DNA of 64,000 nucleotides from Parvularculaceae bacterium (GCA_021776435.1 JAJFFW010000041.1:6351-70350), one strand, 5' to 3'; shown: positions 19,895-47,059, counted from the stretch's first letter. Numbers and translations: made by a program. The notes: a model not told the origin generated them from the sequence alone.

Positions 19895-19916
19895 GACTTA
19901 CATTTCTCCCAATGAA

Positions 19917-30612: not shown

Positions 30613-30678
30613 TGCTCCATGCCTCCGATGCGCGCGCGACCGTCGTACTCATTGATGCGGCCGCTAAAATAAACGTCT

Positions 30679-32193
30679 TTAAAAAATCACTTCCAGATTG
30701 GCCCGCAACACGAATGGCGGTGCTGGACCGAGGTCGGGCTCGATAACCCGAATGAGGCCGGACACGGTCATGCGAATTTGCGGATCCGGGCTGAAGATCA
30801 ATGAGGGGGCGACCATGCCGGTGAAGCCCCCCGAAAAGGAGGGTCTGTCGACGACGTCGAACACAAAAGCCTCGTCTCCGATCATCCCGCAGCCGCCGAC
30901 GGCGCCGGCGACGTCGACCGCGTCGCAGACGTGGATTTCCGGTTCCGGAATCTTGCCGGCATAGGAATCGTTTTGCTTATCGAACCCGACAAAGGTCAGA
31001 TCCATGGCCACAAAATCTTTGTAGATCGGCTTGACGAAGGATGCGAAATACGTGGTCGTGTCACCAAAATCGATACCGTCTTCTTCCTGTACGAATTTAT
31101 GGATCACGCCGATATGCCCGGCGCTGCGGCCCAGGAAGCTGTTGGGAGCGAACTGTCGAGTGAGGAATCCGCCGGTCAGGAAGCTAAAGTCGCCGGTGCC
31201 CGGCTGCAGGGTTGAAGGCAGGCGTCCATCGGCTGAGAAGCGACCAAAAATGCCGTCATTGAATGGAAAATCACCAATGAAGGCGTTGTCGAAATTCGCG
31301 CCGCCCGGAGCGAATGACAACGGCCCGGCAGACGGCGCGCCGAAAGCCCCGCCGTCGCCCATGGCCGGTCCATCACATAGCGCTCGATTGCCGAGATTGA
31401 AATTGTGAAAGAAGCATCTGGGATCGCCCCACACGCCCATATCCACATTCGCCTTCATGACCGCATCGAAACCCTGCGCCGCGATCGTGTTCGGAGGTTG
31501 CGGCCGTTTCGTCGTGACCCGTCCGTTCGAGCCAAAGGTCTCGTCATTGGCGCCGGTCGGAAAGAAGACGGCGCCGACAACGGCGAGGCCGAACGGATGA
31601 TTGCCCTGATCCCACACTTTTTTCTTGAGGAACACGCCGACGTCGCCGATCTCCTGCGTGCTGCCTGCGTTCTCTATGCTAATGAATTGTTGACCATTGG
31701 GATGAATGAAACCGTCAACGCTTGAACTCAGATAAGGCACGTTAACGCGGAGCGTGAAACCGTGAAGATACTTTCTGTTCAGGTCGAAACCATAGAGAAA
31801 ATCAAAATCGGTCAGATTGCGCTCGACTGTGGAATCTCCGAAGACGGCGAGGTTGGGAGATCCATTGCGAAAGAAGTCGTCGCCCTCGATACGCGTGTAA
31901 CGGTGGGTTAGTCCGACCGACACGGCGCCGGGGGGGAGAACGAAGGCATGCTGCGTAAAGGCAGGGCGCAAAAGCGGCGGAATAAAGGTCAGGATTTGCG
32001 TCTTGATCTGATTGCGCTCGAAGGCTTTTTGCTCTTCGCCTCCCAGCACGCCTTGCTCCGTACCCAATTCTAAATAGCGATCCGCTGCTGTGGGTTTATC
32101 TTTGTCCACATCTTCTTGAGCTTGGGCGCCGCCGCCCGCTGCAATCGAAAGAAGAAAAGCAAGACTTGCTCCGCTCCGGAGGAAATATTTCAT
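30679..32193 (-). CDS. outer-membrane beta-barrel protein (MetA-pathway/FapF-type transporter family-like)
   Basis: Signal peptide '...LLSIAAGGGAQAQ'. 'AVVGAVFFPTGAND' motif, alternating beta-strand pattern, C-terminal 'LEVIF'. No CXXCH. Confidence 0.7.
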   Translation of the reverse strand: MKYFLRSGASLAFLLSIAAGGGAQAQEDVDKDKPTAADRYLELGTEQGVLGGEEQKAFERNQIKTQILTFIPPLLRPAFTQHAFVLPPGAVSVGLTHRYTRIEGDDFFRNGSPNLAVFGDSTVERNLTDFDFLYGFDLNRKYLHGFTLRVNVPYLSSSVDGFIHPNGQQFISIENAGSTQEIGDVGVFLKKKVWDQGNHPFGLAVVGAVFFPTGANDETFGSNGRVTTKRPQPPNTIAAQGFDAVMKANVDMGVWGDPRCFFHNFNLGNRALCDGPAMGDGGAFGAPSAGPLSFAPGGANFDNAFIGDFPFNDGIFGRFSADGRLPSTLQPGTGDFSFLTGGFLTRQFAPNSFLGRSAGHIGVIHKFVQEEDGIDFGDTTTYFASFVKPIYKDFVAMDLTFVGFDKQNDSYAGKIPEPEIHVCDAVDVAGAVGGCGMIGDEAFVFDVVDRPSFSGGFTGMVAPSLIFSPDPQIRMTVSGLIRVIEPDLGPAPPFVLRANLEVIF

Positions 32194-32244
32194 ACCAAAG
32201 CCCCCTTTTGGGAAAATTATTAACCAAAATCTATTTCGTCATAC

Positions 32245-32259
32245 GCAACTGGCGTGCCA
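32245..32259 (-). promoter_or_regulatory. sigma54 (-24/-12) promoter
   Basis: The minus strand reads cTGGCACGCCAGTTGCg, an exact TGGCAC-N5-TTGC, 52 nt upstream of the ATG at 32193. Confidence 0.7.
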
Positions 32260-34795: not shown

Positions 34796-34802
34796 GGCGC
34801 CT

Positions 34803-35630
34803 TCAACCGTTCTGGCTTTCGAGAAATTTCACGATGGCCTCGAGTTCTTTGATCGTCAGTTCATCTACGAAGTAATCGGGCATCATCGGCTCGTAACCAT
34901 CGGCAATCACCGACATCGGATCGATGATGCTCTGGCGGATCTGTTCAGTGGTCAGGCGCGCCCCCACAGTTCTAAGATCGGGACCGATATCCACCTCGCT
35001 GTCGAGAATGCTGTGGCAGGCTGTGCAACCGTAATTCATCAAAAGGTCTGCGGCGGTCGCCGTCTCGCCAGAAACCGCAGGCTCAGCGGCGGAATCATTT
35101 GCAGGTTCCGGCGCCGGTTCGAGCCGGGCGGTCGGCAGAGCGACTGTCACATCGTGCCCGTCCTTGGATTCAAGAAACGCAATGATTGCGTCCATTTCCA
35201 TCTGAGATAGCTGAATCGGCGCTTGGTTGACCGGTGGCATGGGCGATATCTGGTCATCGGTGCCTTTCTTGCCAAAGCCCGGCACGACATAGGCGCTTGG
35301 TTCCGTCATCGATTCCCGAATATAGCTGGCAGCATCGACCGCATCTCCTTCATAGCCCTCAGCGGAGATCCGCGATGCAGAGGTGTCGACGACGTTTAAG
35401 GCCAGGAGGTCAGGCGCCCGCCCCATATTGTTGTGACATAACGCGCAAGTCCCTTTTCCTGTGAAAAGCTTTTCTCCCAATCGGGTGAAATCCGCCATCG
35501 TCAGTGAGCTGACGTCGATTGTTGTTTCCTCCGGCGGCTCGCCCTGCACTTGCGGCAAAAGGTTAGCGACCCCGGTGAAGACCAGAGTGAGGAGAAGGCT
35601 GAACCCCGCGACTTTTCCCAACACCCGCAT
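34803..35630 (-). CDS. diheme c-type cytochrome
   Basis: 275 aa. N-terminal anchor or signal. CALCH and CTACH. Start overlaps the upstream stop (TGATG). Confidence 0.85.
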   Translation of the reverse strand: MRVLGKVAGFSLLLTLVFTGVANLLPQVQGEPPEETTIDVSSLTMADFTRLGEKLFTGKGTCALCHNNMGRAPDLLALNVVDTSASRISAEGYEGDAVDAASYIRESMTEPSAYVVPGFGKKGTDDQISPMPPVNQAPIQLSQMEMDAIIAFLESKDGHDVTVALPTARLEPAPEPANDSAAEPAVSGETATAADLLMNYGCTACHSILDSEVDIGPDLRTVGARLTTEQIRQSIIDPMSVIADGYEPMMPDYFVDELTIKELEAIVKFLESQNG

Positions 35631-37486
35631 CAGCTTTGCTCAACATATGGTTTGCGTGTCTCGCCGAGCGACGCAAGCCAGAAAATGAATAGCACCATGA
35701 GTAAGAATAGCACTGTCACGATTGTCATCATGTTGCCCGCATAACCGATCGTCGGAATAAAATTATCAGGTGAGGCGTCCTTAAGAACACCATAAACGTG
35801 CCAGTGTCCGCGGACAGATGACCGGACATACCCCATCAACGCCATCAACCAGGTGAATGCTACCGGCAAAGCAAACAATGCGTATTGCGAGCGTTCGCTA
35901 ACTTGCCCCCAACGTGAGGGTAAAATCTTTGCGTTCCGATACATGAAAGAGTCGAGGATGACGCCGCTGATGATGACGAACAGTGTCGAGACCACCTGGA
36001 TCACGCTCGCTCCCACTTTGTAAACCGTGTTGGTGAAGTAGCCGTAATAAACGCCAGCGAAAATAACGTTGATAATCGCCACCAGATAGATCGCTGTCAT
36101 CAAGGCGTTGCCTGATTTTTCCCACGACACCGTCGCCACCTTGTCTGACCGCCTATAGAGCTGAAAAGAGAGGAAGGTGCAGATGAGCATCAAGTTCACG
36201 GCGATGTTCTTGGCGGGCATGATGCCTAGCGGTCCGAGAATATGATGGTGGCTGCCGCCGAGTGTGGCGATTTCGTCGGAAGACAAAATGAGCGTGTGCG
36301 GAGTGACCCAGACCAGAAAGCCCAGAACCAACACTCCCGCGATGTATTTGATAATCCAGTCGTATCGCTTCGAACCTTCCGAGCGCGACATGCCCGACCA
36401 CAGATAATAATTGGCGGCCAGCAAAATTGTACCGATCAAAACCGCCTGAACGATGAATAGCCAGGCGAGAATTCCGCCCATCGCGGTGATCCCCATCTGC
36501 TGTGAATACGCGTAAATTTCGGCCATCAACCAATACCCAGCGAAGGGCAGAGGCAGGAGCGCCAGAACAGCAATGAAATTGGCTGTGTAGCCCATCCAGT
36601 CGTAATGGGCTTTGTCCGCCTTCGTCGTTGAACTTAAAAATTTAAAAGCCGCATAAGCGCCCACCATTGCCCCGCCGAAGGCGATGTTGGCGATGAACCG
36701 ATGCAAATTGAGCGGGTTCCACAAGGGGCCCCTCATGATTTCCCAGATTCCGCCGGTCACGACACCAGCCTCGGTGACGCCGCTCGGCGCCATGGTGAAG
36801 GTGGCCCAGGAATTGGCGATGAAAAGCAAGCTCGTCCCAACGGCGTTGAGCAGTAGACCGAGCGTTAAATGGAGCCATTTGCCGTTGCCTGAGCTGAGGC
36901 GGCGCCAACTGTAGTAATAGATGTAAAGTAGCGTGCTCTCGGCAAAGAAAAGACCTGCATAGACTAACACCTGCGATCCAAAAACGCGCATTAAGAAGGC
37001 CATGAATCCGGGATAGAGAAGGAAGAGAACAAAAGACAGCGTGCCGCCTAAAAGCGCCGTTATGGAATAGGCGGTCAGGCTGATCTTCATGAACTCGTGC
37101 GCCATGTCGTCATATCGTCGATCGTGAGTGGTTTGCCCGATCCATTCGATGACGACGACAAAGAGTGGTACAGCGAGAACAAAGGCTGCGAAGAACAGAT
37201 GCAGTTGCGCCACCACCCATACGACCGATCGACTACTAACACCAATGTTCGGATAATCTCTCGGGCCAAGCTTCGGGGCGCCGACACTTTCCTCTGTCAC
37301 CGGAGGTGAGGTCAGATCTTGATCTGTGATGCCGGACGAGATCAACGTATCACTCGCCTGAGCCTCGACAGACCCCGCAGCCACTGCGGCTAGCAGAAAA
37401 ATTGCAAGCACAGCCCAAAACCGAAGACCGGGACGTGTCAAGCCTGTGCGCCACGTTGGCATTAATTTCTCCTTGAACATCATCAT
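35630..37486 (-). CDS. cytochrome bd-like oxidase subunit I (CydA) homolog, extended, without Q-loop
   Basis: Many TM helices (I estimate about 14). CydA-like motifs 'VAQLHLFFAAF' (His19-type), 'FFAESTLLYIYYYSW' (Glu99/Glu107 region), 'IANSWATFTMAPSG' (compare 'ANGWMQNP'), 'NPLNLHRFIANIAFGG'. Only a short loop where CydA has the Q-loop. No cydB nearby. First ATG at 37486; the ORF track begins at a TTG at 37489. Confidence 0.75.
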   Translation of the reverse strand: MMMFKEKLMPTWRTGLTRPGLRFWAVLAIFLLAAVAAGSVEAQASDTLISSGITDQDLTSPPVTEESVGAPKLGPRDYPNIGVSSRSVVWVVAQLHLFFAAFVLAVPLFVVVIEWIGQTTHDRRYDDMAHEFMKISLTAYSITALLGGTLSFVLFLLYPGFMAFLMRVFGSQVLVYAGLFFAESTLLYIYYYSWRRLSSGNGKWLHLTLGLLLNAVGTSLLFIANSWATFTMAPSGVTEAGVVTGGIWEIMRGPLWNPLNLHRFIANIAFGGAMVGAYAAFKFLSSTTKADKAHYDWMGYTANFIAVLALLPLPFAGYWLMAEIYAYSQQMGITAMGGILAWLFIVQAVLIGTILLAANYYLWSGMSRSEGSKRYDWIIKYIAGVLVLGFLVWVTPHTLILSSDEIATLGGSHHHILGPLGIMPAKNIAVNLMLICTFLSFQLYRRSDKVATVSWEKSGNALMTAIYLVAIINVIFAGVYYGYFTNTVYKVGASVIQVVSTLFVIISGVILDSFMYRNAKILPSRWGQVSERSQYALFALPVAFTWLMALMGYVRSSVRGHWHVYGVLKDASPDNFIPTIGYAGNMMTIVTVLFLLMVLFIFWLASLGETRKPYVEQS

Positions 37487-37617
37487 CAAGCTGGTTGTAA
37501 GATCCAGTTGAGTGGCAATCCCTGGCCTGCCATTATCGCTTGATCAATCGCGTAGAAAACTGCGGCGGTGGCCGTCAAGACAACGATCCAGATTATCAGT
37601 GAGCGACGCTCCTTCAT
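37486..37617 (-). CDS. 43-aa single-TM micro-protein, translationally coupled to the bd-like gene
   Basis: My own translation: MKERRSLIIWIVVLTATAAVFYAIDQAIMAGQGLPLNWILQPA. AAGGGA SD upstream. Its TGA stop overlaps the bd-like ATG (TGATG). Below the ORF-track size cut-off. Confidence 0.5.
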   Translation of the reverse strand: MKERRSLIIWIVVLTATAAVFYAIDQAIMAGQGLPLNWILQPA

Positions 37618-37640
37618 GGCCTATCATATCCCTTAGCTGG

Positions 37641-37814
37641 TTACGTTACGTGCGGAGCCACGCCGTGCGGGAAGATTGTCAGCCACCAGAAGAAGGCCAT
37701 AACTGCTATCAGCGCGCCGCCGAACAGCCATGGACCGGTGCGGTCTCCCTTAACATTTGGCTCATCCGCTCGATCTTCCGACCCATGCGATGATCTTTCC
37801 ATTTCCGGCGGCAT
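37641..37814 (-). CDS. 57-aa single-TM micro-protein, first gene of the minus-strand operon
   Basis: My own translation: MPPEMERSSHGSEDRADEPNVKGDRTGPWLFGGALIAVMAFFWWLTIFPHGVAPHVT. Lies 23 nt upstream of the next ORF. Confidence 0.45.
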   Translation of the reverse strand: MPPEMERSSHGSEDRADEPNVKGDRTGPWLFGGALIAVMAFFWWLTIFPHGVAPHVT

Positions 37815-37984
37815 AGCGGCTCCCTTTTCAATTTCTAACTGGGTATTCGATCAAATTTCAGCGATCGATCGAGCTTCCTCTTTTTTACCCCGCCAACGCT
37901 CTGTAAACGGCCGACATATCTGCATTGACCAGCTTGGATCGCGGTGGTTGAGACGGTTTTCCGGCGATGTTGAGCGATCTATTA

Positions 37985-37999
37985 GCAACTTCCAGGCCA
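37985..37999 (-). promoter_or_regulatory. candidate sigma54 promoter (minus strand)
   Basis: The minus strand reads cTGGCCTGGAAGTTGCt. GG and GC have the correct 12-nt register. About 170 nt upstream of the ATG at 37814. Confidence 0.5.
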
Positions 38000-38205: not shown

Positions 38206-38220
38206 TGGCACGATTACTGC
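38206..38220 (+). promoter_or_regulatory. candidate sigma54 promoter (plus strand)
   Basis: tTGGCACGATTACTGCt. TGGCAC is exact and the -12 element is CTGC. Confidence 0.55.
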
Positions 38221-38357: not shown

Positions 38358-38501
38358 ATGAGCCAAATAGCCGAGAGTCAAATTGAACAACGACGCTCAA
38401 CGTGGCGTAACAAACTCTTTGATCTTTTTATCCTTTCGGGCCTGACAATGAATCTCATCGTTATTGGATGGCTCGTTGGATACTGGGTCCTGCACATATG
38501 A
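38358..38501 (+). CDS. 47-aa single-TM micro-protein
   Basis: MSQIAESQIEQRRSTWRNKLFDLFILSGLTMNLIVIGWLVGYWVLHI. Internal ATG of the 65-aa ORF-track entry. First ORF after the plus-strand sigma54 promoter. Confidence 0.4.
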   Translation: MSQIAESQIEQRRSTWRNKLFDLFILSGLTMNLIVIGWLVGYWVLHI

Positions 38502-38545
38502 TGGCTGCTGAAATCCGAATTCGAAATAAAAGTGAGACCTAAGCG

Positions 38546-40738
38546 ATGGCTCAACCTTTAGAGAACGAAGCAAGTGCCCTTGGAAAAGATGAGAAGGGCG
38601 GAAAACTCGACCTTCCCTCATATGCTTCGGTCTTGGTCGCCGTCGATGCTTCTGACCACGCCAATCGAGCGACCGTAGAGGCGGCGGCGATTGCCAAGGC
38701 ATTTGACGCTCGCATGACGGCGACTCACGTCTATGCAGCGAAACTTCATGATCTGCGGTTTCGGCAGATGGAGGGTGGGCTTCCCGAACAGTTCCGCGAG
38801 GAGAGCGAATTGGAGCGTCAACGGGATGTCCATGACGATCTTATCACCCGCGGACTCTCGATCATCACGGACTCTTATCTCGATCACGCCGCGCGTGTCT
38901 GTGAGCAAACCGGGGTCAACTTTGAGCGTCGGTCACTCGAAGGCAAGAATTATCGAGCTTTGGTCGCAGAGACGAACTCAGGTGATTATGATCTTTTAAT
39001 CATCGGCTCTTTAGGGTTGGGTGCGGTGCCTGGAAATACACTGGGGTCAGTCTGCGATCGAGTGGCGCGCCGAACTAATATCGACACACTGGTGATCAAA
39101 GATACGATCCGTCCGCTCGCCGATGGACCGATCGTTGTCGCCATTGACGGATCGTCTCGTGCTTATGGCGGTCTCATGACAGCGCTTGCTCTGGCTGAAT
39201 GCTGGCGTGTTCCAGTCGAGGTGATTGCCGCCTTCGATCCCTATTATCATTATGTCGCCTTCAACCGTATCGCCGGCGTGTTGTCCGAAGAAGCGGGCAA
39301 GGTGTTTCGCTTTGAAGAGCAAGAACAGCTGCACGAGGAGATCATCGATTCCGGTCTCGCCAAAATCTATCAGGGCCATCTGAGCGTCGCCCGCCAGATT
39401 GCCGACGAGTATGACGTCCAATTGAAGACGACGCTTCTCGATGGCAAACCGCATGCCGCCATCGAAAAATATCTCACTAGGGCGAAACCTTCCCTCCTCG
39501 TGGTCGGTAAGGTGGGCATCCATGCTGATCCCGATCTCGACATCGGCGGTACGACAGAAAATTTGTTGCGCAATGCCGCCTGCTCGATTCTGCTCAGTCA
39601 ACGCGAACATAAGCCCCGCATCGACCTGATCGCGGCCGAAACCATTTCCTGGACCAAAGAGGCCGAACAAAGAATGGAAGCCGTGCCTTCTTTCGTTTCT
39701 TCGATGGCGAGAATGGCGATCTTGCGCTACGCGCAGGATAAAGGGCACACCGTGATCACCGAGCGGATCGTTGAGGAAGCCACCGCCAAGTTGATGCCGC
39801 ACCGCGCCGAAGAGACCATGCGCCAGATCGTCGAAGCCCACGATGATGGCAAACTTGATTCACTAAATCCCGAGATCGAGACGCCAGGCTGGTCGGATGA
39901 AGCGATTGGGCTCTTATCGGAAATCGAGAGCTCTTCGACACGGGACAATGTCGCCAAGCGAGCTGAGAAGAAGGCGCGCCAGCAAGGTCAGCCCATTGTC
40001 CTCGTGGCGCATGTTATGGACTTTCTAGAATCCTCTTATGTTGAAGTGGCGCCGTTGCATTGGACGGCTCCGGCGCTCGCACGCCTCATGAAAGTCCCCG
40101 CTGGTATAATGCGCGACGGCGTGAAGGCGCGGGTTGAGGACTATGCGCGGCGCGAAGACCTGCACGAGATTACTCTCCACATCACCGAAATCGGATTGAC
40201 CGAAGCGCGCAGTGAGATGGAAACGATGGCGGCGGGCAGCGCTTCGCAGTCAGCGACTGGAAGTTTTCCACAGAAAGCAAGTAAATGTCCGTTTGCGGAT
40301 AGTGTGCAAAATGACGAATTATCTGTGCCGCCCCCTGACGCTAATTTCGGCTCTGAATGGACCCCAGAAGCTAAAGCCCGCCTCAACGCCGTGCCGGTCG
40401 GATTCTGTAGAGACATGGTGGTGAAGGCGGCGGAAACCATAGGCGGCGTCAACGGCCTTTCGGAAATCGATTCCGAGTTTGTTAAGCAATTGCTTCGCAC
40501 ATTCCGAACTGGGGCGGAGGGCGTAAGCGAGGCTCTGCCTTGGGATGCAGATGCGAGGATTCGAGTCTCCCGAGCCCCGAAGATGGTCCGCGGTATGTTG
40601 ATTCGTGAGATCGAAAATTGGACCCGGCGTCACGGGCGCGACAGCGTCGATGAAGCGGCGGTGGACTCAGTCAAGGATCAATGGATGAAGCGCGGATTTT
40701 TTCATCTCGACCCCAGCGATCCGAGGAGCGGGCTCTAA
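38546..40738 (+). CDS. tandem universal-stress-protein (USP) domains fused to five PCP_red-like modules
   Basis: 730 aa. Two USP folds ('VLVAVDASDHANRA...LLIIGSLGLGAVPGNTLGSVCDRVARR', 'IVVAIDGSSRAY...LLVVGKVGIH...GGTTENLLRNAACSILL'). Then five modules of about 45 aa beginning 'W[TSD]xxA...(V/A)P' (for example 'WTKEAEQRMEAVPSFVSSMARMAILRYA'). Confidence 0.75.
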   Translation: MAQPLENEASALGKDEKGGKLDLPSYASVLVAVDASDHANRATVEAAAIAKAFDARMTATHVYAAKLHDLRFRQMEGGLPEQFREESELERQRDVHDDLITRGLSIITDSYLDHAARVCEQTGVNFERRSLEGKNYRALVAETNSGDYDLLIIGSLGLGAVPGNTLGSVCDRVARRTNIDTLVIKDTIRPLADGPIVVAIDGSSRAYGGLMTALALAECWRVPVEVIAAFDPYYHYVAFNRIAGVLSEEAGKVFRFEEQEQLHEEIIDSGLAKIYQGHLSVARQIADEYDVQLKTTLLDGKPHAAIEKYLTRAKPSLLVVGKVGIHADPDLDIGGTTENLLRNAACSILLSQREHKPRIDLIAAETISWTKEAEQRMEAVPSFVSSMARMAILRYAQDKGHTVITERIVEEATAKLMPHRAEETMRQIVEAHDDGKLDSLNPEIETPGWSDEAIGLLSEIESSSTRDNVAKRAEKKARQQGQPIVLVAHVMDFLESSYVEVAPLHWTAPALARLMKVPAGIMRDGVKARVEDYARREDLHEITLHITEIGLTEARSEMETMAAGSASQSATGSFPQKASKCPFADSVQNDELSVPPPDANFGSEWTPEAKARLNAVPVGFCRDMVVKAAETIGGVNGLSEIDSEFVKQLLRTFRTGAEGVSEALPWDADARIRVSRAPKMVRGMLIREIENWTRRHGRDSVDEAAVDSVKDQWMKRGFFHLDPSDPRSGL

Positions 40739-40773
40739 CCGACTTGACGCAACGAATGAAAGGCGGCCGGTCG

Positions 40774-42033
40774 ATGAACACATTGCTGTTACTGGCGATC
40801 AACCTGACACGACGTTGCAATCTGGCGTGTACGCACTGTTATCTGGATGCGGAGACGCTGAGCCGCGCTGCTCCAGACGAGTTGACGACGCAAGAAGTTT
40901 GCGACTTACTCGATGCGATCGCAAAGCGTGGTGATGAGACCATGGTCGTGCTGACCGGTGGCGAACCCCTCGTGCGCGCCGATCTGGAAACCCTAATTGG
41001 TCACGGCGCCAGACGCGGACTTGCCGTCGTCGTAGGAACCAACGGAACCCTCTTGACCGAGCGGCGTGTCTTGTCACTGAAGAAGGCTGGCGCGCTCGGC
41101 GTTGGCATCAGCCTCGACTCGCTCGACGCAGAAATTCACGACGACTTCAGGGGTAAGCCAGGGGCTTGGGAGAGAACCATGAGCGGGATCGAGGCCTGTC
41201 GTCGCCATGATCTGTCGTTTCAGATCCACTTCACGGTTACAGAGCGCACGGTCGGCGAGATTGATGCTATAATTGAATTCTCCAGGGGCGTCGGCGCCCG
41301 CGTGCTCAATGTCTTCTTCCTAATTTGTACCGGGCGCGCTGAGTCGATTTCCGACCTTGCACCGAAGCGCTACGAGGAAGTGCTCAGGCAGCTGATCGAG
41401 GCTCAAGAACACAACCCCGACCTCATCATTCGGCCGCGATGTGCGCCGCATTCAAAGCGCATCGCCCATCAAAGAGACCCAGACAGCCAGGTCAATCAAA
41501 TTAGCGGCAGGGACGGTGATGGTTGTATCGCTGCAACGCATTACTGCCGCATTACAGCAACGGGGGGTGTGACCGCATGTCCTTATATCGCCGAAGAGGC
41601 CGGTAATATTCGCACACGGCCATTCCTTGAAATCTGGGAACAGGCGCCGGAATTCGGTGCATTGCGCCAGCCGACATTGGAGGGCGCCTGCGGGGTTTGT
41701 GAATATAAGTTGTTGTGCGGTGGATGCCGGGCGCGGCCACAGGCAGCGGGTGAGGGTCTGATGGGCGCTGATAATCTGTGCACCTATTCGCCTCGCGGTG
41801 CAGCGGTAATCGAACCCTTGGCTGATCAAGTTCTGGCCAAAATCACCTGGAGCACGGACGCCGCCGGGCGGTTGTCGAATGTGCCGTCATTCTTGCGCGG
41901 CCTTGTTCGCCGGCGGGCCGAGGCTTATGTCGCGGGTCGTGGAGAATCGCAGGTGACGATCGAACATTTGTCGGAATTGACCGCTCGGCGCTTTGGCGCC
42001 GGCGGCCCGCGCAATCCGGGAGCCCGGATATGA
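40774..42033 (+). CDS. radical SAM/SPASM enzyme, AhbD/NirJ-like (tetrapyrrole-modifying family), with C-terminal PCP_red-like module
   Basis: 'LTRRCNLACTHCY' (CX3CX2C), 'VLTGGEPL', SPASM Cys cluster 'CPYI...ACGVCEYKLLCGGCRARP'. C-terminal 'WSTDAAGRLSNVPSFLRGLVRRRAEAYV'. Alternative ATG at 40756; the ORF-track start at 40681 overlaps the upstream gene. Confidence 0.75.
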   Translation: MNTLLLLAINLTRRCNLACTHCYLDAETLSRAAPDELTTQEVCDLLDAIAKRGDETMVVLTGGEPLVRADLETLIGHGARRGLAVVVGTNGTLLTERRVLSLKKAGALGVGISLDSLDAEIHDDFRGKPGAWERTMSGIEACRRHDLSFQIHFTVTERTVGEIDAIIEFSRGVGARVLNVFFLICTGRAESISDLAPKRYEEVLRQLIEAQEHNPDLIIRPRCAPHSKRIAHQRDPDSQVNQISGRDGDGCIAATHYCRITATGGVTACPYIAEEAGNIRTRPFLEIWEQAPEFGALRQPTLEGACGVCEYKLLCGGCRARPQAAGEGLMGADNLCTYSPRGAAVIEPLADQVLAKITWSTDAAGRLSNVPSFLRGLVRRRAEAYVAGRGESQVTIEHLSELTARRFGAGGPRNPGARI

Positions 42034-43484
42034 GCGATATCGATGTTCTCGTTATCGGCGGCGGCATCTCCGGCCTCGCCACGGCATGGCGCCTTGCACG
42101 CCGGGGAATATCCGTAGAAGTCTGGGATCGCGAGAAACGGCCGGGCGGCAAAATCTCAAGCGCTCGTCAGGACGGTTATGTCACCGAGCGGGCGGCCTCC
42201 ATGGTGATGAATTTCCGGCCAGAGATAACGCACTTTCTTGGCGAGTCGGGTGTCGATATTCATAAAGTGCGCTGTACACCAACGAAAAAACGTTATCTCG
42301 TCAACGCCGGCAGACTTGGGGCAATCCCGAACACGATCGGCGCCGCCCTCATGCGCGCCCCTTTTAGTCGACGAGGGCGCGCGCGGCTAATGCTCGAACC
42401 ATTCATCCCTAAGGGCGGCCATGAGAGCGAGACTGTCAGCGCCTTCGTTCGCCGGCGTTTCGGGAACGAACTTTTGGAAGGTGCGATGGATTCGTTCGTA
42501 GCCGGAACGCTTGCCTCTGATCCGGACCATGCCTGCGCTCGGGCTGTGCTTCCGCGCCTGACGGCGCTCGAAAATCGCTACGGCAGTATAGCGCTTGGCG
42601 TCATTGCGAAAAAACTTTTGCGGCGTCGCTCGGCGATGCCCAACGAGGCCTTCTCTTTCGCTGGAGGAATGGGCACACTGGTTGAGTCTTTGGCGGCGAT
42701 TCCCGGCGTCGGTTTCCGGCCAGGTAGAACCGTTACGAAGCTGATTCGTGAGCAAAATGGCTGGCGGGTCGAAGCCAGCTCTTCGGATGGTGATATCGCA
42801 TTCAGTGCACGAACTGTCGTTTTATGCACGCCGGCCAAAGTCGCGGCGCGATTAGTCGGGTCCGTCGATGCGGACCTGCAAGGAATGTTGGCCGGCATCG
42901 ATTATGCGCCGCTCTCCGTTGTTCATTTAGGGTTTTCCAAATCGGACATTCGTCATCCGCTTGATGGCGCCGGTTTTTTGGCGCCGCGAAGGGAAGGGTT
43001 GGCCATCAACGGCTGTCTCTGGCCGAGTTCGCTGTTTTCTGGTCGCGCGCCCGCGGGTAGAGTATTGTTGAGTTGTTATCTCGGGGGCGCGCGAAACCCA
43101 GCGGCGGCGTCCTGGGACGATCGTAGGAGTATCGACGCAGTTCTGTCTTCTATCGTCCCCTTGCTCGACATCCGCGGAACCTCTGAAACGGTTCGCATCG
43201 ACCGCCATCGGGAAGCTCTGCCCCTCTATCACGGCCGTTACCTCGCTCATATGCGGGACATTGATCGACGGCTGGCGGATCATCCGGGTCTCCACCTTGA
43301 GGCCAATTACAAAGGAGGCGTCTCTGTCCGGGATCGCATCCTATGCGCCTACAAGGCTGCGGACCGAATTGAGGCCGATCTCGGAACGTCGGCGAAAAGC
43401 ACATGTTATCGTTTGGCGCCGGGTGACAGTCGATATTCAACATTCACCGGCAGTGCACATGCTGTATTTATGGATGGAGCTTGA
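42030..43484 (+). CDS. FAD-dependent protoporphyrinogen/coproporphyrinogen oxidase-like (HemY/CgoX family)
   Basis: 'IDVLVIGGGISGLATAWRL' dinucleotide fold, 'GGKISS...DGYVTERAA', C-terminal 'EALPLYHGRY...HPGLHLEANYKGGVSVRDRI'. ATGA overlap with the radical SAM gene. Confidence 0.7.
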   Translation: MSDIDVLVIGGGISGLATAWRLARRGISVEVWDREKRPGGKISSARQDGYVTERAASMVMNFRPEITHFLGESGVDIHKVRCTPTKKRYLVNAGRLGAIPNTIGAALMRAPFSRRGRARLMLEPFIPKGGHESETVSAFVRRRFGNELLEGAMDSFVAGTLASDPDHACARAVLPRLTALENRYGSIALGVIAKKLLRRRSAMPNEAFSFAGGMGTLVESLAAIPGVGFRPGRTVTKLIREQNGWRVEASSSDGDIAFSARTVVLCTPAKVAARLVGSVDADLQGMLAGIDYAPLSVVHLGFSKSDIRHPLDGAGFLAPRREGLAINGCLWPSSLFSGRAPAGRVLLSCYLGGARNPAAASWDDRRSIDAVLSSIVPLLDIRGTSETVRIDRHREALPLYHGRYLAHMRDIDRRLADHPGLHLEANYKGGVSVRDRILCAYKAADRIEADLGTSAKSTCYRLAPGDSRYSTFTGSAHAVFMDGA

Positions 43485-43491
43485 GGCTATC

Positions 43492-43836
43492 ATGTCGGAA
43501 GCTGGACCCGATAGAGTGCAAGAAGATTACTCACCGTCTGTGCGATTTAAGCCGTTACGGGTGATTATCGCTGTATTGGCCGCTACGCTTGCGGTGTCTG
43601 CTTACGCGAACTGGTATTCAGAGGAGGTATCGCTGCCGCGATATTGCGAGGATCCGGAGCAAAGCCTTCGCCTCTTGGAGAGCGTTATGACACAAGAACG
43701 CCCAGCGGGTGAGGAGAGTCGGCGACCTTATTTGATCGCCGCGAAACTTTTGTATCTGATCCCGCAAGAGGAGAGTGAATCTCTTTCCGCCTATCAAGCA
43801 CGCCTCCGTCAAGAACTGGTCAGCCGATGCCAATGA
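43492..43836 (+). CDS. 114-aa membrane-anchored hypothetical protein
   Basis: 'MSEAGPDRV...LRVIIAVLAATLAVSAYANWY'. Its 3' end overlaps the kinase gene start by 10 nt (43827-43836). The longer ORF-track version overlaps the upstream gene. Confidence 0.45.
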   Translation: MSEAGPDRVQEDYSPSVRFKPLRVIIAVLAATLAVSAYANWYSEEVSLPRYCEDPEQSLRLLESVMTQERPAGEESRRPYLIAAKLLYLIPQEESESLSAYQARLRQELVSRCQ

Positions 43837-45677
43837 ACCCTATGAGCGACGCCAATAAAGAGTCCCCTTGGGCGAATGTGACCATGTTCGCCATGATCAT
43901 CGGGATCGCGGTGATGATGCTTATGGGCGGGATGGCGGCGCATCTTTGGTGGACCGCTGGTGCGGCGACGCCTTCTGGTGACAGACCCGATGCCTTATTC
44001 AACGCCCTCAAACGGTTCGCCCCATTTTACGGCTTTACATTGATCTTGGTAGTAGCGCTGTCCGGTATGCTGGCGCATGCGATAGTCAAATGCTCTGAGG
44101 CGGAAAGCCGTATTGCCTTTGAGCGTCGCTTCCGAGAAACCCTCGGCGGCATCGGGTTGATGACCTTGGGCCTGGATGCGCAGGGCAAGATCACCGATTG
44201 CAACGACGTTTTTCTCCGTCTCGTCGGCCAAGGCATGAATGAGGTCTTCGGGTGCGACTGGATCGAATCCTTCGTCCCTGCCGTTGAACAACTCGAAACC
44301 AAGGCGGCGTTCTTGAAGGCGGCGTCGGGGCCGGCCCCGCATAAACATTATCAGTGCAAGATCGAGACCCGGTTGGGTCGCGAGCACATTATCTCCTGGG
44401 GCGTTTGGTCATTGCACGATCCGCTGAAAAAAACGGTCGGCTACACCTGTATCGGTCAGGATATTACAGAAGCCGACGAAATGAAGGAGCAATTGCGCAA
44501 GCTTTCCCACGCAGTAGAGCAAAGCCCGAGTGTGGTGATGATCGTCAATCTCGAGCAAAAGATCGAATATGTGAACCCCAAATTCACAGAGGCGACCGGT
44601 TACACTCTCGAGGAAATGCGCGGGAAGAACCCCCGTGTCCTGAAATCTGGGGAAACCAGCGCCGACGAATACAAGAATCTTTGGTCCACCGTCAAAGCAG
44701 GCGGTGAATGGCGCGGAGTGTTTCACAATCGTAAAAAGAGCGGCGAGTTGTTTTGGGAATCGGCGGTGATCTCGGCGCTGCGCGATGCTGACGGAGAAAT
44801 CACCCACTTTATTGCTGTCAAGGAAGACATCACGGAACGTGTGCGGCTGGAACACGAAGTTGCCGAGCGCAATCGCGAAATAGCCAAAAACCAGACCATG
44901 GCGGCAATCGGAAAAGTTGCGACGATGCTGGCGCACGACCTGCGTAATCCCTTGTCGTCGGTCAAGATGGGGTTGCAAATGTTATCCAAGAAACCGTCGC
45001 CCGAATGGGGCGAGGCCGAACAGGAACTACAGCAAATTGCGCTCCAGCAACTTCAATATACTGAGGAAATTTTGCAAAACCTGTTGAGTTATTCCCGTCC
45101 CGACGCCCTTCGGCTGGAGTGGCTCAACATCGGCAAGCTTCTCGACGTCGCCGTCTTCATCGCACATCGCGAGGTCGATGGACGTCTGGTCAAGATCACC
45201 ACCTGTCATCAGCACGGATTGCCGACGCTTTACGGAGACCCCGGAAAATTGAAACAAATGTTTTCGAACATCATCAACAATGCGGTCGAGGCGACCAAAG
45301 ATGTTGTCGGGCGCAAGCCGGAAGTCTTGATTTCGACCAATGTTGAGGTGATCGACGATGCGCCATGGATATTGGTGGAGATCAGCGATAATGGTGTCGG
45401 CATCGAATCGGGGACAAGTGACCAGCTGTTCGAGCCGTTCTTCACGACGCGGGCGAAGGGCACTGGCCTTGGCCTCGCAATTGTCAAACGCATCGTCGAT
45501 CAGCACCGCGGCTCTGTGCGTATGCAACGCGGATCACAATGTGGCACCGCAGTACGGATTCTGCTGCCGACGACCGCCGTTTTAGAAGACGTGGATCAGG
45601 GGTCCTCTGCGGTTGAACAATCGAGCCCTCCAATATTAGCGTCAATGGAATCGCATCATGATGGTGATATGTCATGA
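43827..45677 (+). CDS. PAS-domain sensor histidine kinase (NtrB/AtoS-like)
   Basis: Two N-terminal TM helices, two PAS domains, H-box 'LAHDLRNPLSS', N-box 'NIINNAVEA', G-boxes 'DNGVGI' and 'GTGLGLAIV'. Confidence 0.88.
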   Translation: MPMNPMSDANKESPWANVTMFAMIIGIAVMMLMGGMAAHLWWTAGAATPSGDRPDALFNALKRFAPFYGFTLILVVALSGMLAHAIVKCSEAESRIAFERRFRETLGGIGLMTLGLDAQGKITDCNDVFLRLVGQGMNEVFGCDWIESFVPAVEQLETKAAFLKAASGPAPHKHYQCKIETRLGREHIISWGVWSLHDPLKKTVGYTCIGQDITEADEMKEQLRKLSHAVEQSPSVVMIVNLEQKIEYVNPKFTEATGYTLEEMRGKNPRVLKSGETSADEYKNLWSTVKAGGEWRGVFHNRKKSGELFWESAVISALRDADGEITHFIAVKEDITERVRLEHEVAERNREIAKNQTMAAIGKVATMLAHDLRNPLSSVKMGLQMLSKKPSPEWGEAEQELQQIALQQLQYTEEILQNLLSYSRPDALRLEWLNIGKLLDVAVFIAHREVDGRLVKITTCHQHGLPTLYGDPGKLKQMFSNIINNAVEATKDVVGRKPEVLISTNVEVIDDAPWILVEISDNGVGIESGTSDQLFEPFFTTRAKGTGLGLAIVKRIVDQHRGSVRMQRGSQCGTAVRILLPTTAVLEDVDQGSSAVEQSSPPILASMESHHDGDMS

Positions 45678-47059
45678 GCAGGATACTGATCATTGACGAC
45701 GACCACGCGAGTTGCCGCACCTTGGAGCTCCATTTTCGAAGCCAAGGGCATGACATTCATCTCGCGCACAACATGGAGCAGGGTTTCGTAAAGATCGAAG
45801 GTACTAAGCCGGAACTCATCATCCTCGATATCCGAATGCCTGGGATGGACGGCCTGGAAGGATTGCCGCATATCAATGAAATGGCGCCCGACACGCCGGT
45901 TATTATGATTACGGCCTTTCATGACATGGAAAGCACGATCCAGGCGATGAAGCGGGGCGCCTGCGATTACATACAAAAGCCGATTGATATAAACGAGCTC
46001 AACGCTGCTGTAAGCATGGCGTTGACTCGGTTGAAGCTATCGGACTCAGAGCTCGCCGCTGGTGAGGTCCGTGGAACTGTGTCCGCTTCTAGCAGCATGG
46101 TCGGTAGTAGCCGATCGATGAAGGAAATTTACAAGATCATCGGTGTGATCGCCCCAAAACCACTGACCGTTCTGATCGAAGGTGAAAGTGGGACGGGTAA
46201 GGAACTGGTGACGCGCGCGATTCATGACGCCAGCGCCAATGCATCGGGCCCATTCGTCGCCGTCAATTGCGCGGCGCTGGTCGAGACGTTGATCGAGTCC
46301 GATTTATTCGGGCACGAAAAGGGAGCGTTCACGGGCGCAGTGCGTCGCCAGCCCGGCAAGCTCGCCATGGCCAATAATGGAACCATCTTTCTTGATGAGG
46401 TTGGTGAGCTCTCCCCAAAAATTCAGGCGAAACTTCTACGTATTCTTCAGGAACGGGAATATGTTCCGGTCGGCGGGACACAGGTTTGTTATACCAACGC
46501 CCGGGTCGTCGCTGCGACCAATGTCGACCTGCTGGAACAAGTTCGTCTCGGTAAGTTTCGCGAGGACCTTTACTACCGACTTCAAGTTGTGACTATACGC
46601 CTCCCGCCCTTGCGCGAGCGAATAGAAGATATCCCTGAGCTTGTTCAAGCATTGCTTGTACGGGTTAATCAGGAATTGCGCTGTAAGGTCGGCGGTGTAT
46701 CAAACGGTGTGATCGATGCTTTCTATGCTCATCAATGGCCAGGAAATGTCCGTGAGCTGGAGAATGTGTTGATGAAGGCAGTCGCTCTTTGTTCTGGTGA
46801 AATTATCACCGAGGAGCTGATTCCCGAATATATGCGGCGGCGCGAACCGGTATCGAAAAGCCTCGGAAAACCCGTGGCCCAATTGTCGTTGAAGGAAGCG
46901 GATGTTCAACATGTCGCGCGGATATTGGAGTCGACCAACTGGCACCGAGGACGAGCCTGTGAGATCTTGGGAATCTCGCGCCCTCGCTTACGTCGGATAA
47001 TGGTCGAGGCGGGTCTAGATGTGCCCCCCCATGTCACCGCCGAAGATGACGACGCCTGA
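45674..47059 (+). CDS. sigma54-dependent response regulator (NtrC/AtoC family bEBP)
   Basis: REC ('ILIIDDD...LDIRMPGMDG'), AAA+ ('GESGTGKE', 'GAFTGA' sigma54-contact loop, 'FREDLYYRL'), C-terminal Fis-type HTH. ATGA overlap with the kinase gene. Confidence 0.9.
   Translation: MSRILIIDDDHASCRTLELHFRSQGHDIHLAHNMEQGFVKIEGTKPELIILDIRMPGMDGLEGLPHINEMAPDTPVIMITAFHDMESTIQAMKRGACDYIQKPIDINELNAAVSMALTRLKLSDSELAAGEVRGTVSASSSMVGSSRSMKEIYKIIGVIAPKPLTVLIEGESGTGKELVTRAIHDASANASGPFVAVNCAALVETLIESDLFGHEKGAFTGAVRRQPGKLAMANNGTIFLDEVGELSPKIQAKLLRILQEREYVPVGGTQVCYTNARVVAATNVDLLEQVRLGKFREDLYYRLQVVTIRLPPLRERIEDIPELVQALLVRVNQELRCKVGGVSNGVIDAFYAHQWPGNVRELENVLMKAVALCSGEIITEELIPEYMRRREPVSKSLGKPVAQLSLKEADVQHVARILESTNWHRGRACEILGISRPRLRRIMVEAGLDVPPHVTAEDDDA

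What the first reader, a model, noticed from the sequence alone, without database searches (positions are those of the whole stretch)
38546..43484. Tetrapyrrole-type enzyme set (USP/PCP_red scaffold, AhbD/NirJ-like radical SAM, HemY/CgoX-like oxidase) co-regulated with the bd-like module
Three translationally linked genes directly face the haem-protein operon across a shared sigma54 control region. The radical SAM enzyme has the CX3CX2C and SPASM clusters and the overall look of the AhbD/NirJ group, which decarboxylate or modify propionate side chains of iron tetrapyrroles. The FAD oxidase resembles protoporphyrinogen/coproporphyrinogen oxidases. Together, CgoX plus AhbD would form an oxygen-independent end of the coproporphyrin-dependent haem route. 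That route is not the expected haem pathway of Alphaproteobacteria, and no ferrochelatase is present here. An alternative is that they tailor a specialised haem (d-type or other) for the bd-like protein or the DOMON domain. Either would be new. The genetic basis of haem d formation for bd oxidases is, to my knowledge, unresolved.
Basis: inference. Interest (0 to 1): 0.72.

Follow-up and report, generated by a model that had tools for sequence, protein, structure and literature searches.

The report
Haem-tailoring genes beside bd-like oxidase
Three genes that look like late haem-making enzymes sit next to, and appear to be co-regulated with, an enigmatic cytochrome bd-like respiratory complex; the same pairing recurs in several bacterial phyla and I found no description of it, so it probably supplies or tailors the haem of that complex.

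Summary
Window 38546-43484 (+) encodes three proteins:
- a tandem-Usp protein with five PCP_red repeats;
- a radical SAM/SPASM enzyme with a C-terminal PCP_red domain, closest to AhbD/NirJ2 (about 300 bits, below the 500-bit equivalog cut-off, but more than twice any peptide-maturase model);
- a HemY-family FAD oxidase that passes the protoporphyrinogen oxidase model.

Two conserved small membrane proteins, a PAS histidine kinase and a sigma54 activator complete the operon.

The set is linked to the same bd-like/cytochrome c/EB_dh genes in both directions:
- 23 of 32 fully flanked genome loci carry the bd-like genes;
- 16 of 23 fully flanked metagenome bd-like loci carry the rSAM (17 the Usp protein, 15 the HemY-like gene).

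Gene arrangements differ between loci. Sigma54 sites are enriched 10-15 fold in the divergent intergenic regions.

A 37-39%-identical rSAM plus a tandem Usp lies directly beside a homologous bd-like gene in five loci of Nitrospirota, Thermodesulfobacteriota and a MAG labelled Syntrophomonadaceae. Those loci have no HemY-like gene.

In Nitrospinota, Brocadia and some Gallionella the rSAM lies among housekeeping genes.

Best reading: a dedicated haem synthesis and delivery module using AhbD-type chemistry. The product (haem b or a new haem) is unresolved. I found no published description.

The parts
38206..38220 (+). sigma54-type -24/-12 element (TGGCACGATTACTGC, 1 mismatch) about 150 nt upstream of the small first gene of the accessory operon
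   Evidence: Near-identical sites (TGGCACGATAACTGC) occupy the same intergenic region in L041 and L088. Sites with at most 1 mismatch face the accessory operon in 16 of 41 divergent regions, against a background of 0.039 per kb per strand.
37984..37998 (-). weaker sigma54-like element (TGGCCTGGAAGTTGC, 2 mismatches, GG/GC kept) facing the bd-like operon
   Evidence: Read from the sequence. In 22 of 41 homologous divergent regions a site with at most 1 mismatch faces the bd-like operon.
38358..38501 (+). 47-aa single-helix membrane protein, first gene of the accessory operon
   Evidence: Sequence. Positional homologues lie directly upstream of the Usp-PCP_red gene in about 40 loci, with the motif D-[YL]-x-[VA]-[IL]-x-G-x-x-[IV]-N-x-x-V-[IV]...[YF]-W and no cysteines.
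38546..40738 (+). Tandem Usp domains (residues about 26-350) followed by five PCP_red repeats (369-406, 449-485, 506-543, 605-644, 666-702); proposed nucleotide-binding tetrapyrrole carrier or scaffold
   Evidence: Pfam and NCBIfam; repeat count. G-x2-G-x9-G motifs of both Usp domains are 100% conserved in 69 sequences. The gene lies next to the rSAM in 62 of 67 loci with room upstream.
40774..42033 (+). Radical SAM/SPASM enzyme of the AhbD/NirJ2 group with a C-terminal PCP_red domain
   Evidence: CX3CX2C plus ten further invariant cysteines. A family-wide AhbD/NirJ2 score of 280-320 bits against at most about 165 bits for peptide maturases. PCP_red-fused forms make a coherent clade.
42030..43484 (+). 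HemY-family FAD-dependent porphyrinogen oxidase homologue
   Evidence: TIGR00562 scores 209 bits against a cut-off of 98. Best PDB hit is 2ivd, E 1.5e-53. R88-Y89 are invariant in 59 homologues and align with the conserved Arg of plant, human and Myxococcus protoporphyrinogen oxidases. The gene lies downstream of the rSAM in 57 of 63 loci with room.
43492..43836 (+). 114-aa protein with one N-terminal membrane helix and no Pfam family; conserved after the oxidase gene
   Evidence: Gene call in L001. Homologues at the same position in 31-37 loci, 45-53% identity. No Pfam hit.
43833..45677 (+). PAS-domain histidine kinase, start overlapping the previous gene
   Evidence: Pfam; gene call. Homologues downstream of the set in 16 of 32 fully flanked genome loci.
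45674..47059 (+). NtrC-type response regulator and sigma54 activator
   Evidence: Sigma54_activat E 1.5e-66. Homologues of 52-63% identity downstream in many loci.
35630..37462 (-). Cytochrome bd subunit-I-like membrane protein; only the N-terminal ~250 profile positions match, so it is an OR-N-like type
   Evidence: Pfam. Only distant PDB matches, 43 bits. Highly conserved family. Linked with the accessory genes.
37486..37814 (-). Two small membrane proteins (43 aa at 37486-37617, 57 aa at 37641-37814) heading the bd-like operon
   Evidence: Gene calls; translations. Conserved in 29-32 loci at the same position.
32426..35630 (-). Cytochrome c protein (34803-35630) and tri-cytochrome-c/EB_dh (DOMON-like haem b) protein (32426-34795), partners of the bd-like protein
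   Evidence: Pfam and NCBIfam. They co-occur with the bd-like gene in nearly all loci. Homologous cytochrome c and EB_dh genes occur in L166-L170.

Best explanation
The operon at 38358-43836 is a cytoplasmic, membrane-tethered module for the late steps of haem synthesis and for haem delivery. It serves the divergently transcribed cytochrome bd-like/cytochrome c/EB_dh complex and shares a PAS-kinase/sigma54 circuit with it.

Proposed steps, all inferred:
1. The HemY-like flavoenzyme oxidises coproporphyrinogen III to coproporphyrin III.
2. A ferrochelatase encoded elsewhere inserts iron to give coproheme.
3. The AhbD-type radical SAM enzyme attacks propionate side chains of this iron tetrapyrrole. 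It uses 5'-deoxyadenosyl radical chemistry with two auxiliary clusters and gives haem b or a close derivative.
4. The PCP_red repeats hold the tetrapyrrole and hand it between enzymes and on to the apo-complex. These repeats are homologous to the C-terminal domain of protochlorophyllide reductase subunit B. They sit on the rSAM and, as an array, on the Usp protein.
5. The two nucleotide-binding Usp domains gate or power this transfer.
6. The two small membrane proteins hold the machinery at the membrane.

In the Nitrospirota, Thermodesulfobacteriota and Syntrophomonadaceae-labelled clusters no HemY-like gene lies nearby. A sirohaem route to coproheme would explain that absence, but I did not check it in those genomes.
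For: Shown:
- Family placement of all three proteins.
- Invariant CX3CX2C and ten further cysteines, enough for two auxiliary clusters.
- Intact nucleotide-binding motifs in both Usp domains across phyla.
- Forward linkage: Usp-PCP_red next to the rSAM in 62 of 67 loci, HemY-like in 57 of 63, bd-like within 10 kb in 23 of 32 fully flanked loci. Arrangements are divergent, upstream co-directional or downstream co-directional.
- Reverse linkage: 16 of 23 fully flanked metagenome bd-like loci carry the rSAM, 17 the Usp protein and 15 the HemY-like gene. Four of the remaining loci end in the HEAT gene that normally precedes the set.
- Deep linkage: in five of five loci examined (Nitrospirota, Thermodesulfobacteriota, one MAG labelled Syntrophomonadaceae) a 37-39%-identical rSAM-PCP_red and a homologous tandem Usp sit directly beside a 38-40%-identical bd-like gene, with cytochromes c and an EB_dh subunit.
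- Co-regulation: the sigma54 activator lies in the operon, and sigma54 sites are enriched 10-15 fold in 41 divergent regions.

Inferred:
- The chemistry, by analogy with AhbD. AhbD acts on Fe-coproporphyrin III, and it completes the coproporphyrin route in some Gram-positives (PMC13564367; PMC10452713).
- The carrier role of PCP_red.
Against: - No ferrochelatase is a conserved neighbour in about 170 loci or in the window, so step 2 rests on an unseen enzyme.
- The rSAM scores below NCBI's AhbD and NirJ2 equivalog cut-offs (about 300 bits against 500), so a different substrate or reaction is possible.
- The HemY-like protein keeps the Arg typical of protoporphyrinogen oxidases, which B. subtilis CgoX lacks. 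It is also closer to Myxococcus and plant PgoX than to Bacillus CgoX.
- In Nitrospinota, Brocadia and some Gallionella the rSAM lies among housekeeping genes with no bd-like gene within 10 kb. A general haem synthase role is therefore possible.
- Nine of 32 fully flanked genome loci show no bd-like gene within 10 kb.
- The number of PCP_red repeats varies from 4 to 8 per locus.
- There are no experimental data.
Confidence: 0.5

Rival explanations
1. General haem b branch, not dedicated to the bd-like complex. HemY-like plus AhbD-like form a coproporphyrin-type end of haem b synthesis for the whole cell under low oxygen. They lie near the bd-like genes only because both are induced by the same low-oxygen signal.
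For: - Housekeeping contexts: Gallionella pairs of rSAM and HemY-like next to accC, leuS and che genes, without Usp or bd-like; Nitrospinota and Brocadia loci.
- JGI names some members 'AdoMet-dependent heme synthase'.
- Anammox genomes are annotated with ahbABCD (PMC9387917).
- AhbD is known to serve coproporphyrin-route organisms (PMC13564367).
Against: - Linkage to bd-like genes persists through rearrangements and across phyla at 37-40% identity, and the whole block appears to move together.
- Proteobacteria are expected to have a full protoporphyrin route already (established knowledge; not checked for this genome).
- One MAG carries two copies of the set, one beside bd-like genes and one not (L050 and L009).
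Confidence: 0.2
2. Protoporphyrin-order pair. The rSAM decarboxylates coproporphyrinogen III to protoporphyrinogen IX, as HemN/CgdH does. The HemY-like enzyme then acts as a true protoporphyrinogen oxidase, and the housekeeping ferrochelatase finishes the pathway.
For: - No special ferrochelatase is needed, which fits its absence from all loci.
- The gene order is rSAM then oxidase.
- The oxidase keeps the PgoX-type Arg and is closest to Myxococcus and plant PgoX.
Against:
- The clusters in Nitrospirota, Thermodesulfobacteriota and the Syntrophomonadaceae-labelled MAG have the rSAM without any HemY-like gene.
Confidence: 0.1
3. Peptide-modifying SPASM maturase. The rSAM modifies a small peptide encoded nearby, for example the 47-aa product upstream of the Usp gene, and the oxidase tailors that product.
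For: - A SPASM domain is present.
- A conserved small ORF lies at the head of the operon.
Against: - Maturase models score at most 130 bits on the window protein (up to 166 bits on homologues), against about 300 for AhbD/NirJ2.
- The small protein is a transmembrane helix without cysteines or a Gly/Cys-rich core.
- No RiPP recognition, protease or export genes are conserved in the loci.
- The fused domain is PCP_red, which comes from a tetrapyrrole enzyme.
Confidence: 0.02

Closest known systems
AhbD (haem b synthase, TIGR04545) and NirJ2 (TIGR04055) of the sirohaem-dependent haem pathway
   Same: - Radical SAM CX3CX2C motif, SPASM region with enough cysteines for two auxiliary clusters, and end-to-end alignment to both models.
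- The nearest relatives without PCP_red are AhbD-like, scoring 400-426 bits.
   Different: - Scores about 300 bits, below the 500-bit equivalog cut-offs.
- Carries one to three C-terminal PCP_red domains.
- Is paired with a tandem Usp protein.
- Is linked to bd-like oxidase genes and not to ahbABC in the loci examined.
HemY-type porphyrinogen oxidases (PgoX of the protoporphyrin route, CgoX of the coproporphyrin route)
   Same: - Passes TIGR00562.
- Has the FAD-binding GxGxxG motif.
- Aligns over its full length to 2ivd, 1sez and 3i6d.
- Has the conserved Arg of PgoX.
   Different: - Encoded in an operon with an AhbD-like enzyme in Proteobacteria.
- Its substrate (copro- or protoporphyrinogen) is unknown.
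- Scores far below the lineage-specific equivalog models: 177 against 560, and 92 against 702.
C-terminal domain of protochlorophyllide reductase subunit B (BchB/ChlB; Pfam PCP_red)
   Same: The repeats match PF08369 and the last ~55 residues of the BchB models, E 1e-19.
   Different: - Here the domain is free of the nitrogenase-like body.
- It occurs in arrays of up to five.
- It is fused to Usp or radical SAM domains.
HemW, a HemN-like radical SAM protein that acts as a haem chaperone for respiratory enzymes (my own knowledge; not read here)
   Same: The idea of a haem-synthase-like radical SAM protein that hands haem to a membrane respiratory complex.
   Different: A different radical SAM subfamily. 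Here all catalytic cysteines are kept and an oxidase gene is attached. The chaperone role is only inferred.
OR-N family of cytochrome bd-like proteins (Murali et al., bioRxiv 10.1101/2021.01.16.426971) and the bd-like gene of NXR clusters (Nitrospina genome paper, PMC3578206)
   Same: - The partner protein matches only the N-terminal part of CydA.
- It is accompanied by cytochromes c and EB_dh haem b subunits.
- L166-L170 also carry Nar/Nxr-like molybdoenzyme genes.
   Different: Neither paper mentions a radical SAM, Usp or HemY-like accessory set. I did not assign the subfamily.

Membership tests
AhbD / NirJ2 (NCBIfam equivalogs TIGR04545, TIGR04055) | Radical SAM CX3CX2C motif and SPASM/auxiliary-cluster cysteines | tested here: met
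   C15, C19 and C22 plus ten further invariant Cys in 16 diverse homologues. Pfam Radical_SAM and SPASM.
AhbD / NirJ2 (NCBIfam equivalogs TIGR04545, TIGR04055) | Whole-protein score at or above the curated equivalog cut-off (500 bits) | tested here: not met
   304 and 291 bits for the window protein; 270-346 bits for the other PCP_red-fused members scanned.
AhbD / NirJ2 (NCBIfam equivalogs TIGR04545, TIGR04055) | Closer to AhbD/NirJ2 than to AhbC, NirJ, NirJ1 or peptide maturases | tested here: met
   About 300 bits against about 150 (AhbC, NirJ, NirJ1) and at most 130 for maturases on the window protein, or up to 166 on homologues. The next relatives score 400-426 bits on AhbD.
AhbD / NirJ2 (NCBIfam equivalogs TIGR04545, TIGR04055) | Decarboxylates coproheme to haem b; encoded with or alongside ahbABC | not testable with these tools
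   No assay is possible. No ahbABC in the window. Whole genomes could not be read.
HemY-type porphyrinogen oxidase (TIGR00562) | Score above the curated cut-off, with a full-length match | tested here: met
   209 bits against 98 for the window protein; 221-272 bits for five homologues.
HemY-type porphyrinogen oxidase (TIGR00562) | FAD dinucleotide-binding motif and the conserved active-site Arg of PgoX | tested here: met
   VIGGGISGL at residues 7-15. R88 is invariant in 59 homologues and aligns with the Arg of 2ivd, 1sez and 3nks.
HemY-type porphyrinogen oxidase (TIGR00562) | Substrate: protoporphyrinogen IX (PgoX) or coproporphyrinogen III (CgoX) | not testable with these tools
   The review read states that no residue set is known to separate the two (PMC10427985). 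Bit scores favour Myxococcus and plant PgoX over Bacillus CgoX: 185 and 172 against 139.
Coproporphyrin-dependent haem pathway (CgoX, CpfC, ChdC or AhbD) | A coproporphyrin ferrochelatase is present | tested here: not met
   None in the window, and none among the conserved gene families of the first 83 loci. Elsewhere in the genome could not be checked.
Usp (PF00582), ATP-binding subclass | G-x2-G-x9-G-[S/T] nucleotide-binding motif | tested here: met
   G154, G157, G167-S168 and G321, G324, G334 are 100% conserved in 69 sequences, including distant phyla.
PCP_red (PF08369) | Match to the BchB C-terminal domain above the gathering score | tested here: met
   126 bits (Usp protein) and 43 bits (rSAM) against a cut-off of 32.5. 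BchB models matched at their last ~55 positions.
RiPP radical SAM/SPASM maturase system | An adjacent precursor peptide with a modifiable core, plus recognition, protease or export genes | tested here: not met
   The only conserved small ORFs are single-helix membrane proteins without Cys. No such accessory genes are among the conserved families.
OR-N type cytochrome bd-like oxidase (partner complex) | CydA-like N-terminal helices without the quinol-binding Q-loop region | tested here: inconclusive
   Pfam matches only profile positions 2-251 of 418, consistent with the description. Helix count and ligand residues were not analysed.

The most novel reading that the evidence does not exclude
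The AhbD-like radical SAM enzyme does not make ordinary haem b. It would convert coproheme, or another iron tetrapyrrole, into a so far undescribed haem, for example a partly decarboxylated or chlorin-type derivative. That haem would be the catalytic cofactor of OR-N-type bd-like oxidases, including those encoded beside Nxr/Nar-like enzymes in Nitrospirota. This would explain why Proteobacteria, which can already make haem b, carry an extra HemY-like gene only to feed this enzyme.
Probability: 0.2. Interest if true: 0.9.

Novelty: new variant of a known kind. Interest (0 to 1): 0.68.

Why it matters
Cytochrome bd-like (OR-N) proteins sit in the nitrite-oxidoreductase gene clusters of nitrite oxidisers, and in many sulfur- and iron-oxidising Proteobacteria. 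Their cofactors and function are unknown; the Nitrospina genome paper calls them 'enigmatic'.

A conserved, co-regulated set of haem-type enzymes beside them gives a direct experimental handle:
- knock out or express three genes;
- analyse the haem of one complex.

It also defines a large subfamily of AhbD-like enzymes fused to a chlorophyll-enzyme domain: more than 6,800 clusters at 90% identity and at least 20 at 50%. It would place coproheme chemistry in Proteobacteria, where it is not expected.

If the product is a new haem, that would bear on the open question of how d-type and other modified haems of bd-family oxidases arise.

Tried and rejected
- I first thought the total number of PCP_red repeats per locus was fixed at five, split 4+1 or 2+3. 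A family-specific HMM showed 4 to 8 per locus (window 5+1), so I dropped the claim.
- Sigma54 sites counted only within 650 nt upstream of the Usp gene were not enriched: 18 of 89 loci, against a background of 0.18. The enrichment appears only when the true divergent intergenic regions are used.
- In the window alone, the sigma54 pattern count is at chance: 6 found, 4.6 expected.
- An exact-sequence look-up of the oxidase found nothing.
- The PDB holds no AhbD or NirJ structure, and no close bd-like structure.
- Sigma70 promoter and terminator scans were at chance level.
- Rfam found only two tRNAs.
- Ten literature searches found no paper that links bd-like oxidases with a radical SAM, Usp or HemY-like set. 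The searches covered bd-like plus radical SAM, PF08369/PCP_red, AhbD in sulfur oxidisers, the iodate reductase island, and anammox haem synthesis.
- No published residue signature separates CgoX from PgoX.
- I did not run structure prediction. Only per-residue confidence would be returned, which could not test docking of PCP_red on the rSAM.

Full report
**What is there.** The three ORFs exist as described.
- 38546-40738 encodes a 730-aa protein with two Usp domains and PCP_red repeats (Pfam E 5.7e-33 and 5e-37). A family-specific HMM finds five repeats.
- The radical SAM gene is best started at 40774. The 419-aa product is identical to a database protein and to the gene called on a second assembly of the same DNA. 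It has Radical_SAM, SPASM and a C-terminal PCP_red domain.
- 42030-43484 encodes a 484-aa flavoprotein of the Amino_oxidase fold.
- The closest named relative of the rSAM is from a Parvularculaceae MAG at 80% identity, so an alphaproteobacterial origin is plausible.

**Family placement of the rSAM.**
- NCBIfam scores are NirJ2 304 bits and AhbD 291 bits, both matched end to end. An uncharacterised family (TIGR04053) scores 239. AhbC, NirJ1 and NirJ score about 145-155.
- Peptide maturases reach at most 130 bits on the window protein. On three homologues from other classes one maturase model (GeoRSP) reaches 166 bits, still about half the AhbD/NirJ2 score.
- Both top scores are below the 500-bit equivalog cut-offs, so this is not a certified AhbD.
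- A full HMMER scan of 1.8 billion representative proteins shows a graded family. Of the 26 best-scoring representatives (at least 270 bits, 37-61% identity), 22 carry PCP_red; three of the four that do not are short fragments. The next tier (340-380 aa, no PCP_red, 34-40% identity) scores 400-426 bits on the AhbD model in six of the seven scanned.
- A neighbour-joining tree of the catalytic core puts 31 of 33 PCP_red-bearing representatives in one clade, together with four that lack the domain.
- CX3CX2C and ten further cysteines are invariant.

**Family placement of the oxidase.**
- It passes the protoporphyrinogen oxidase model: 209 bits against a cut-off of 98.
- Its best solved relatives are Myxococcus (185 bits), tobacco (172) and Bacillus (139) HemY enzymes. 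Amine oxidases reach only about E 1e-7.
- R88-Y89 are invariant in 59 homologues. They align with the conserved Arg of the plant, human and Myxococcus enzymes, where the Bacillus coproporphyrinogen oxidase has no Arg.

**Operon anatomy.**
- A conserved 47-aa single-helix protein (38358-38501) precedes the Usp gene. It recurs at that position in about 40 loci, with a fixed D...G..N..V...W motif and no cysteine.
- A conserved 114-aa membrane-anchored protein (43492-43836) follows the oxidase in 31-37 loci.
- A PAS histidine kinase and an NtrC-type sigma54 activator come next, with overlapping start and stop codons.
- On the other strand lie two conserved small membrane proteins, the bd-like protein, a cytochrome c and a tri-cytochrome-c/EB_dh protein.
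- No ferrochelatase or other hem gene is in the window. The module is flanked by tig-clpPX-lon on one side and dnaE-rpsB-tsf-pyrH-frr on the other.

**Regulation.**
- The intergenic region has a one-mismatch sigma54 element facing the accessory operon (38206-38220) and a two-mismatch one facing the bd-like operon (37984-37998).
- In the window alone this is not above chance.
- Across 41 homologous divergent regions (mean length 906 nt), sites with at most one mismatch face the accessory operon in 16 and the bd-like operon in 22. The background is 0.039 sites per kb per strand.
- With the sigma54 activator encoded in the operon, shared sigma54 control is well supported.

**Linkage to the bd-like genes.**
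- A scan of one genome per species found at least 522 species with relatives of the rSAM. The best 80 are mostly MAGs of sulfur- and iron-oxidising Gamma- and Betaproteobacteria, with some Alphaproteobacteria.
- Where the contig leaves room, the Usp-PCP_red gene is adjacent in 62 of 67 loci and the oxidase in 57 of 63.
- The bd-like gene lies within 10 kb in 23 of 32 loci with both flanks present. It occurs in three different arrangements.
- Starting instead from the bd-like protein in metagenomes, 16 of 23 fully flanked loci carry the rSAM, 17 the Usp protein and 15 the HemY-like gene. Four of the remaining seven end in the HEAT-repeat gene that normally precedes the set.

**Deep conservation.**
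- A subfamily only 37-39% identical to the window rSAM occurs in Thermodesulfovibrionales, Ca. Magnetoovum, a Thermodesulfobacteriota MAG and a MAG labelled Syntrophomonadaceae.
- In all five loci examined the order is: tandem Usp and rSAM-PCP_red, bd-like, two cytochromes c, a NarJ-like chaperone, a 1,150-aa molybdoenzyme, an FeS subunit and an EB_dh subunit.
- The Usp, bd-like, cytochrome c and EB_dh products are each homologous to the window proteins at 27-40% identity over most of their length.
- None of these loci has a HemY-like gene.
- The ancient unit is therefore rSAM-PCP_red plus tandem Usp plus the bd-like complex. The oxidase was found only in the proteobacterial loci.

**Counter-examples.**
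- Other subfamilies (40-48% identical) belong to anammox bacteria, Nitrospinota and Binatia.
- In a Brocadia genome the gene stands alone among housekeeping genes. In two further genomes (one labelled Nitrospinota, one unnamed) it pairs with a Usp-PCP_red gene, again among housekeeping genes.
- Three Gallionella loci have an rSAM-oxidase pair next to accC, leuS or che genes, without Usp or bd-like.
- A paper's figure legend lists ahbABCD for anammox bacteria (PMC9387917). In those lineages the protein may simply be the cell's AhbD.

**Mechanism.**
- Shown: the domain content, the intact catalytic and nucleotide-binding motifs, the linkage and the regulation.
- Inferred: the chemistry. Characterised members of the AhbD/AhbC/NirJ group are described as acting on iron tetrapyrroles (PMC10114771, PMC10548856, PMC12505453; listed, not read). 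The most economical reading is therefore that the rSAM acts on coproheme.
- In the non-proteobacterial clusters coproheme could come from a sirohaem route. I did not check this.
- Proteobacteria are not expected to make coproheme, and in them the cluster has a HemY-like enzyme that could make coproporphyrin III. A ferrochelatase is then still needed and is nowhere in the loci.
- The PCP_red repeats derive from the BchB C-terminal domain. As I recall from the DPOR structures, that domain closes over the bound pigment. I propose the repeats hold and pass on the tetrapyrrole, with the Usp domains as a nucleotide-dependent switch.

**Why the product is open.** Proteobacteria can already make haem b, yet they carry this extra route beside one particular complex. 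This suggests one of two things: synthesis coupled to insertion (a HemW-like idea), or a product that is not haem b. I cannot decide between these, nor exclude the reverse order (rSAM on coproporphyrinogen, then a true protoporphyrinogen oxidase).

**Novelty.** The bd-family survey that defined the OR-N and OR-C families does not mention these genes. Neither do the Nitrospina genome paper, a Gallionellaceae pangenome paper or the iodate reductase island paper. A 2026 review of haem biosynthesis places AhbD outside its own pathway only in Gram-positive coproporphyrin-route bacteria. Ten full-text searches gave no description. I rate it a new variant of known kinds of enzyme, in a new architecture and context.

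**Limits.**
- Whole genomes could not be read, so the rest of the haem pathway is unknown.
- Most loci are MAG contigs cut at 10 kb.
- The tree is neighbour-joining, without characterised reference sequences.
- The taxon labels are those of the depositors.

Noticed in passing
L088, L090-L093, L103 (metagenome) and L073; not in the window: In many marine gammaproteobacterial loci the bd-like operon continues with di-haem cytochrome c peroxidase genes and an AioA/IdrA-like molybdoenzyme (Rieske_3 plus Molybdopterin). This resembles the iodate reductase cluster idrABP1P2. The iodate papers report poor conservation of the surroundings and do not mention bd-like genes.
   Followed up: partly
L057:4307-6775 and homologues in about 29 loci; L027:15351-16133 and about 29 loci: An 822-aa HEAT/PBS-lyase-type repeat protein and a 260-aa protein with a CarboxypepD_reg domain usually precede the Usp-PCP_red gene in Sedimenticola-type loci. 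Neither is present in the window. PBS-lyase HEAT repeats are another tetrapyrrole-handling motif.
   Followed up: partly
window 27832-32259 (- strand): A 504-aa protein (weak outer-membrane-barrel-like hit) and a 926-aa protein with a C-terminal cytochrome c domain lie downstream of the bd-like operon. They are preceded by a perfect sigma54 element, TGGCACGCCAGTTGC, at 32245-32259. No homologues were found in the other loci.
   Followed up: partly
L166:5897-6598, L168:9240-9941; window 21501-22331: A Crp/Fnr-type regulator gene lies directly upstream of the rSAM in L168, and three genes upstream of it in L166. One is also present 5 kb beyond the module in the window. This hints at oxygen or NO control.
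   Followed up: no
L009 and L050 (same MAG, MERG01): One betaproteobacterial MAG carries two copies of the Usp-PCP_red/rSAM/HemY-like set. One copy is beside bd-like genes. The other has an AioA-like gene and a two-component system nearby.
   Followed up: no
L002:6937-7539; L004:5178-6944: Copper-related genes lie inside the clusters of Betaproteobacteria: an SCO1/SenC gene upstream of the Usp gene, and a beta-propeller protein with nos_propeller and cupredoxin-like hits.
   Followed up: no
window 15110-21074 (- strand): A run of five ORFs, four without any Pfam family (512, 317, 332 and 385 aa), surrounds a lone Peptidase_C39 domain protein (17181-17876). Function unknown.
   Followed up: no
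window 24712-26037 (- strand) and 27047-27799 (- strand): A Pyr_redox_2/NDH2_C flavoprotein (of the sulfide:quinone reductase or NDH-2 type) and a di-haem cytochrome c lie just beyond the module.
   Followed up: no
window 47112-49592 (- strand): A hybrid PAS histidine kinase with a receiver domain converges on the sigma54 activator gene. It may be a second sensor for the same circuit.
   Followed up: no
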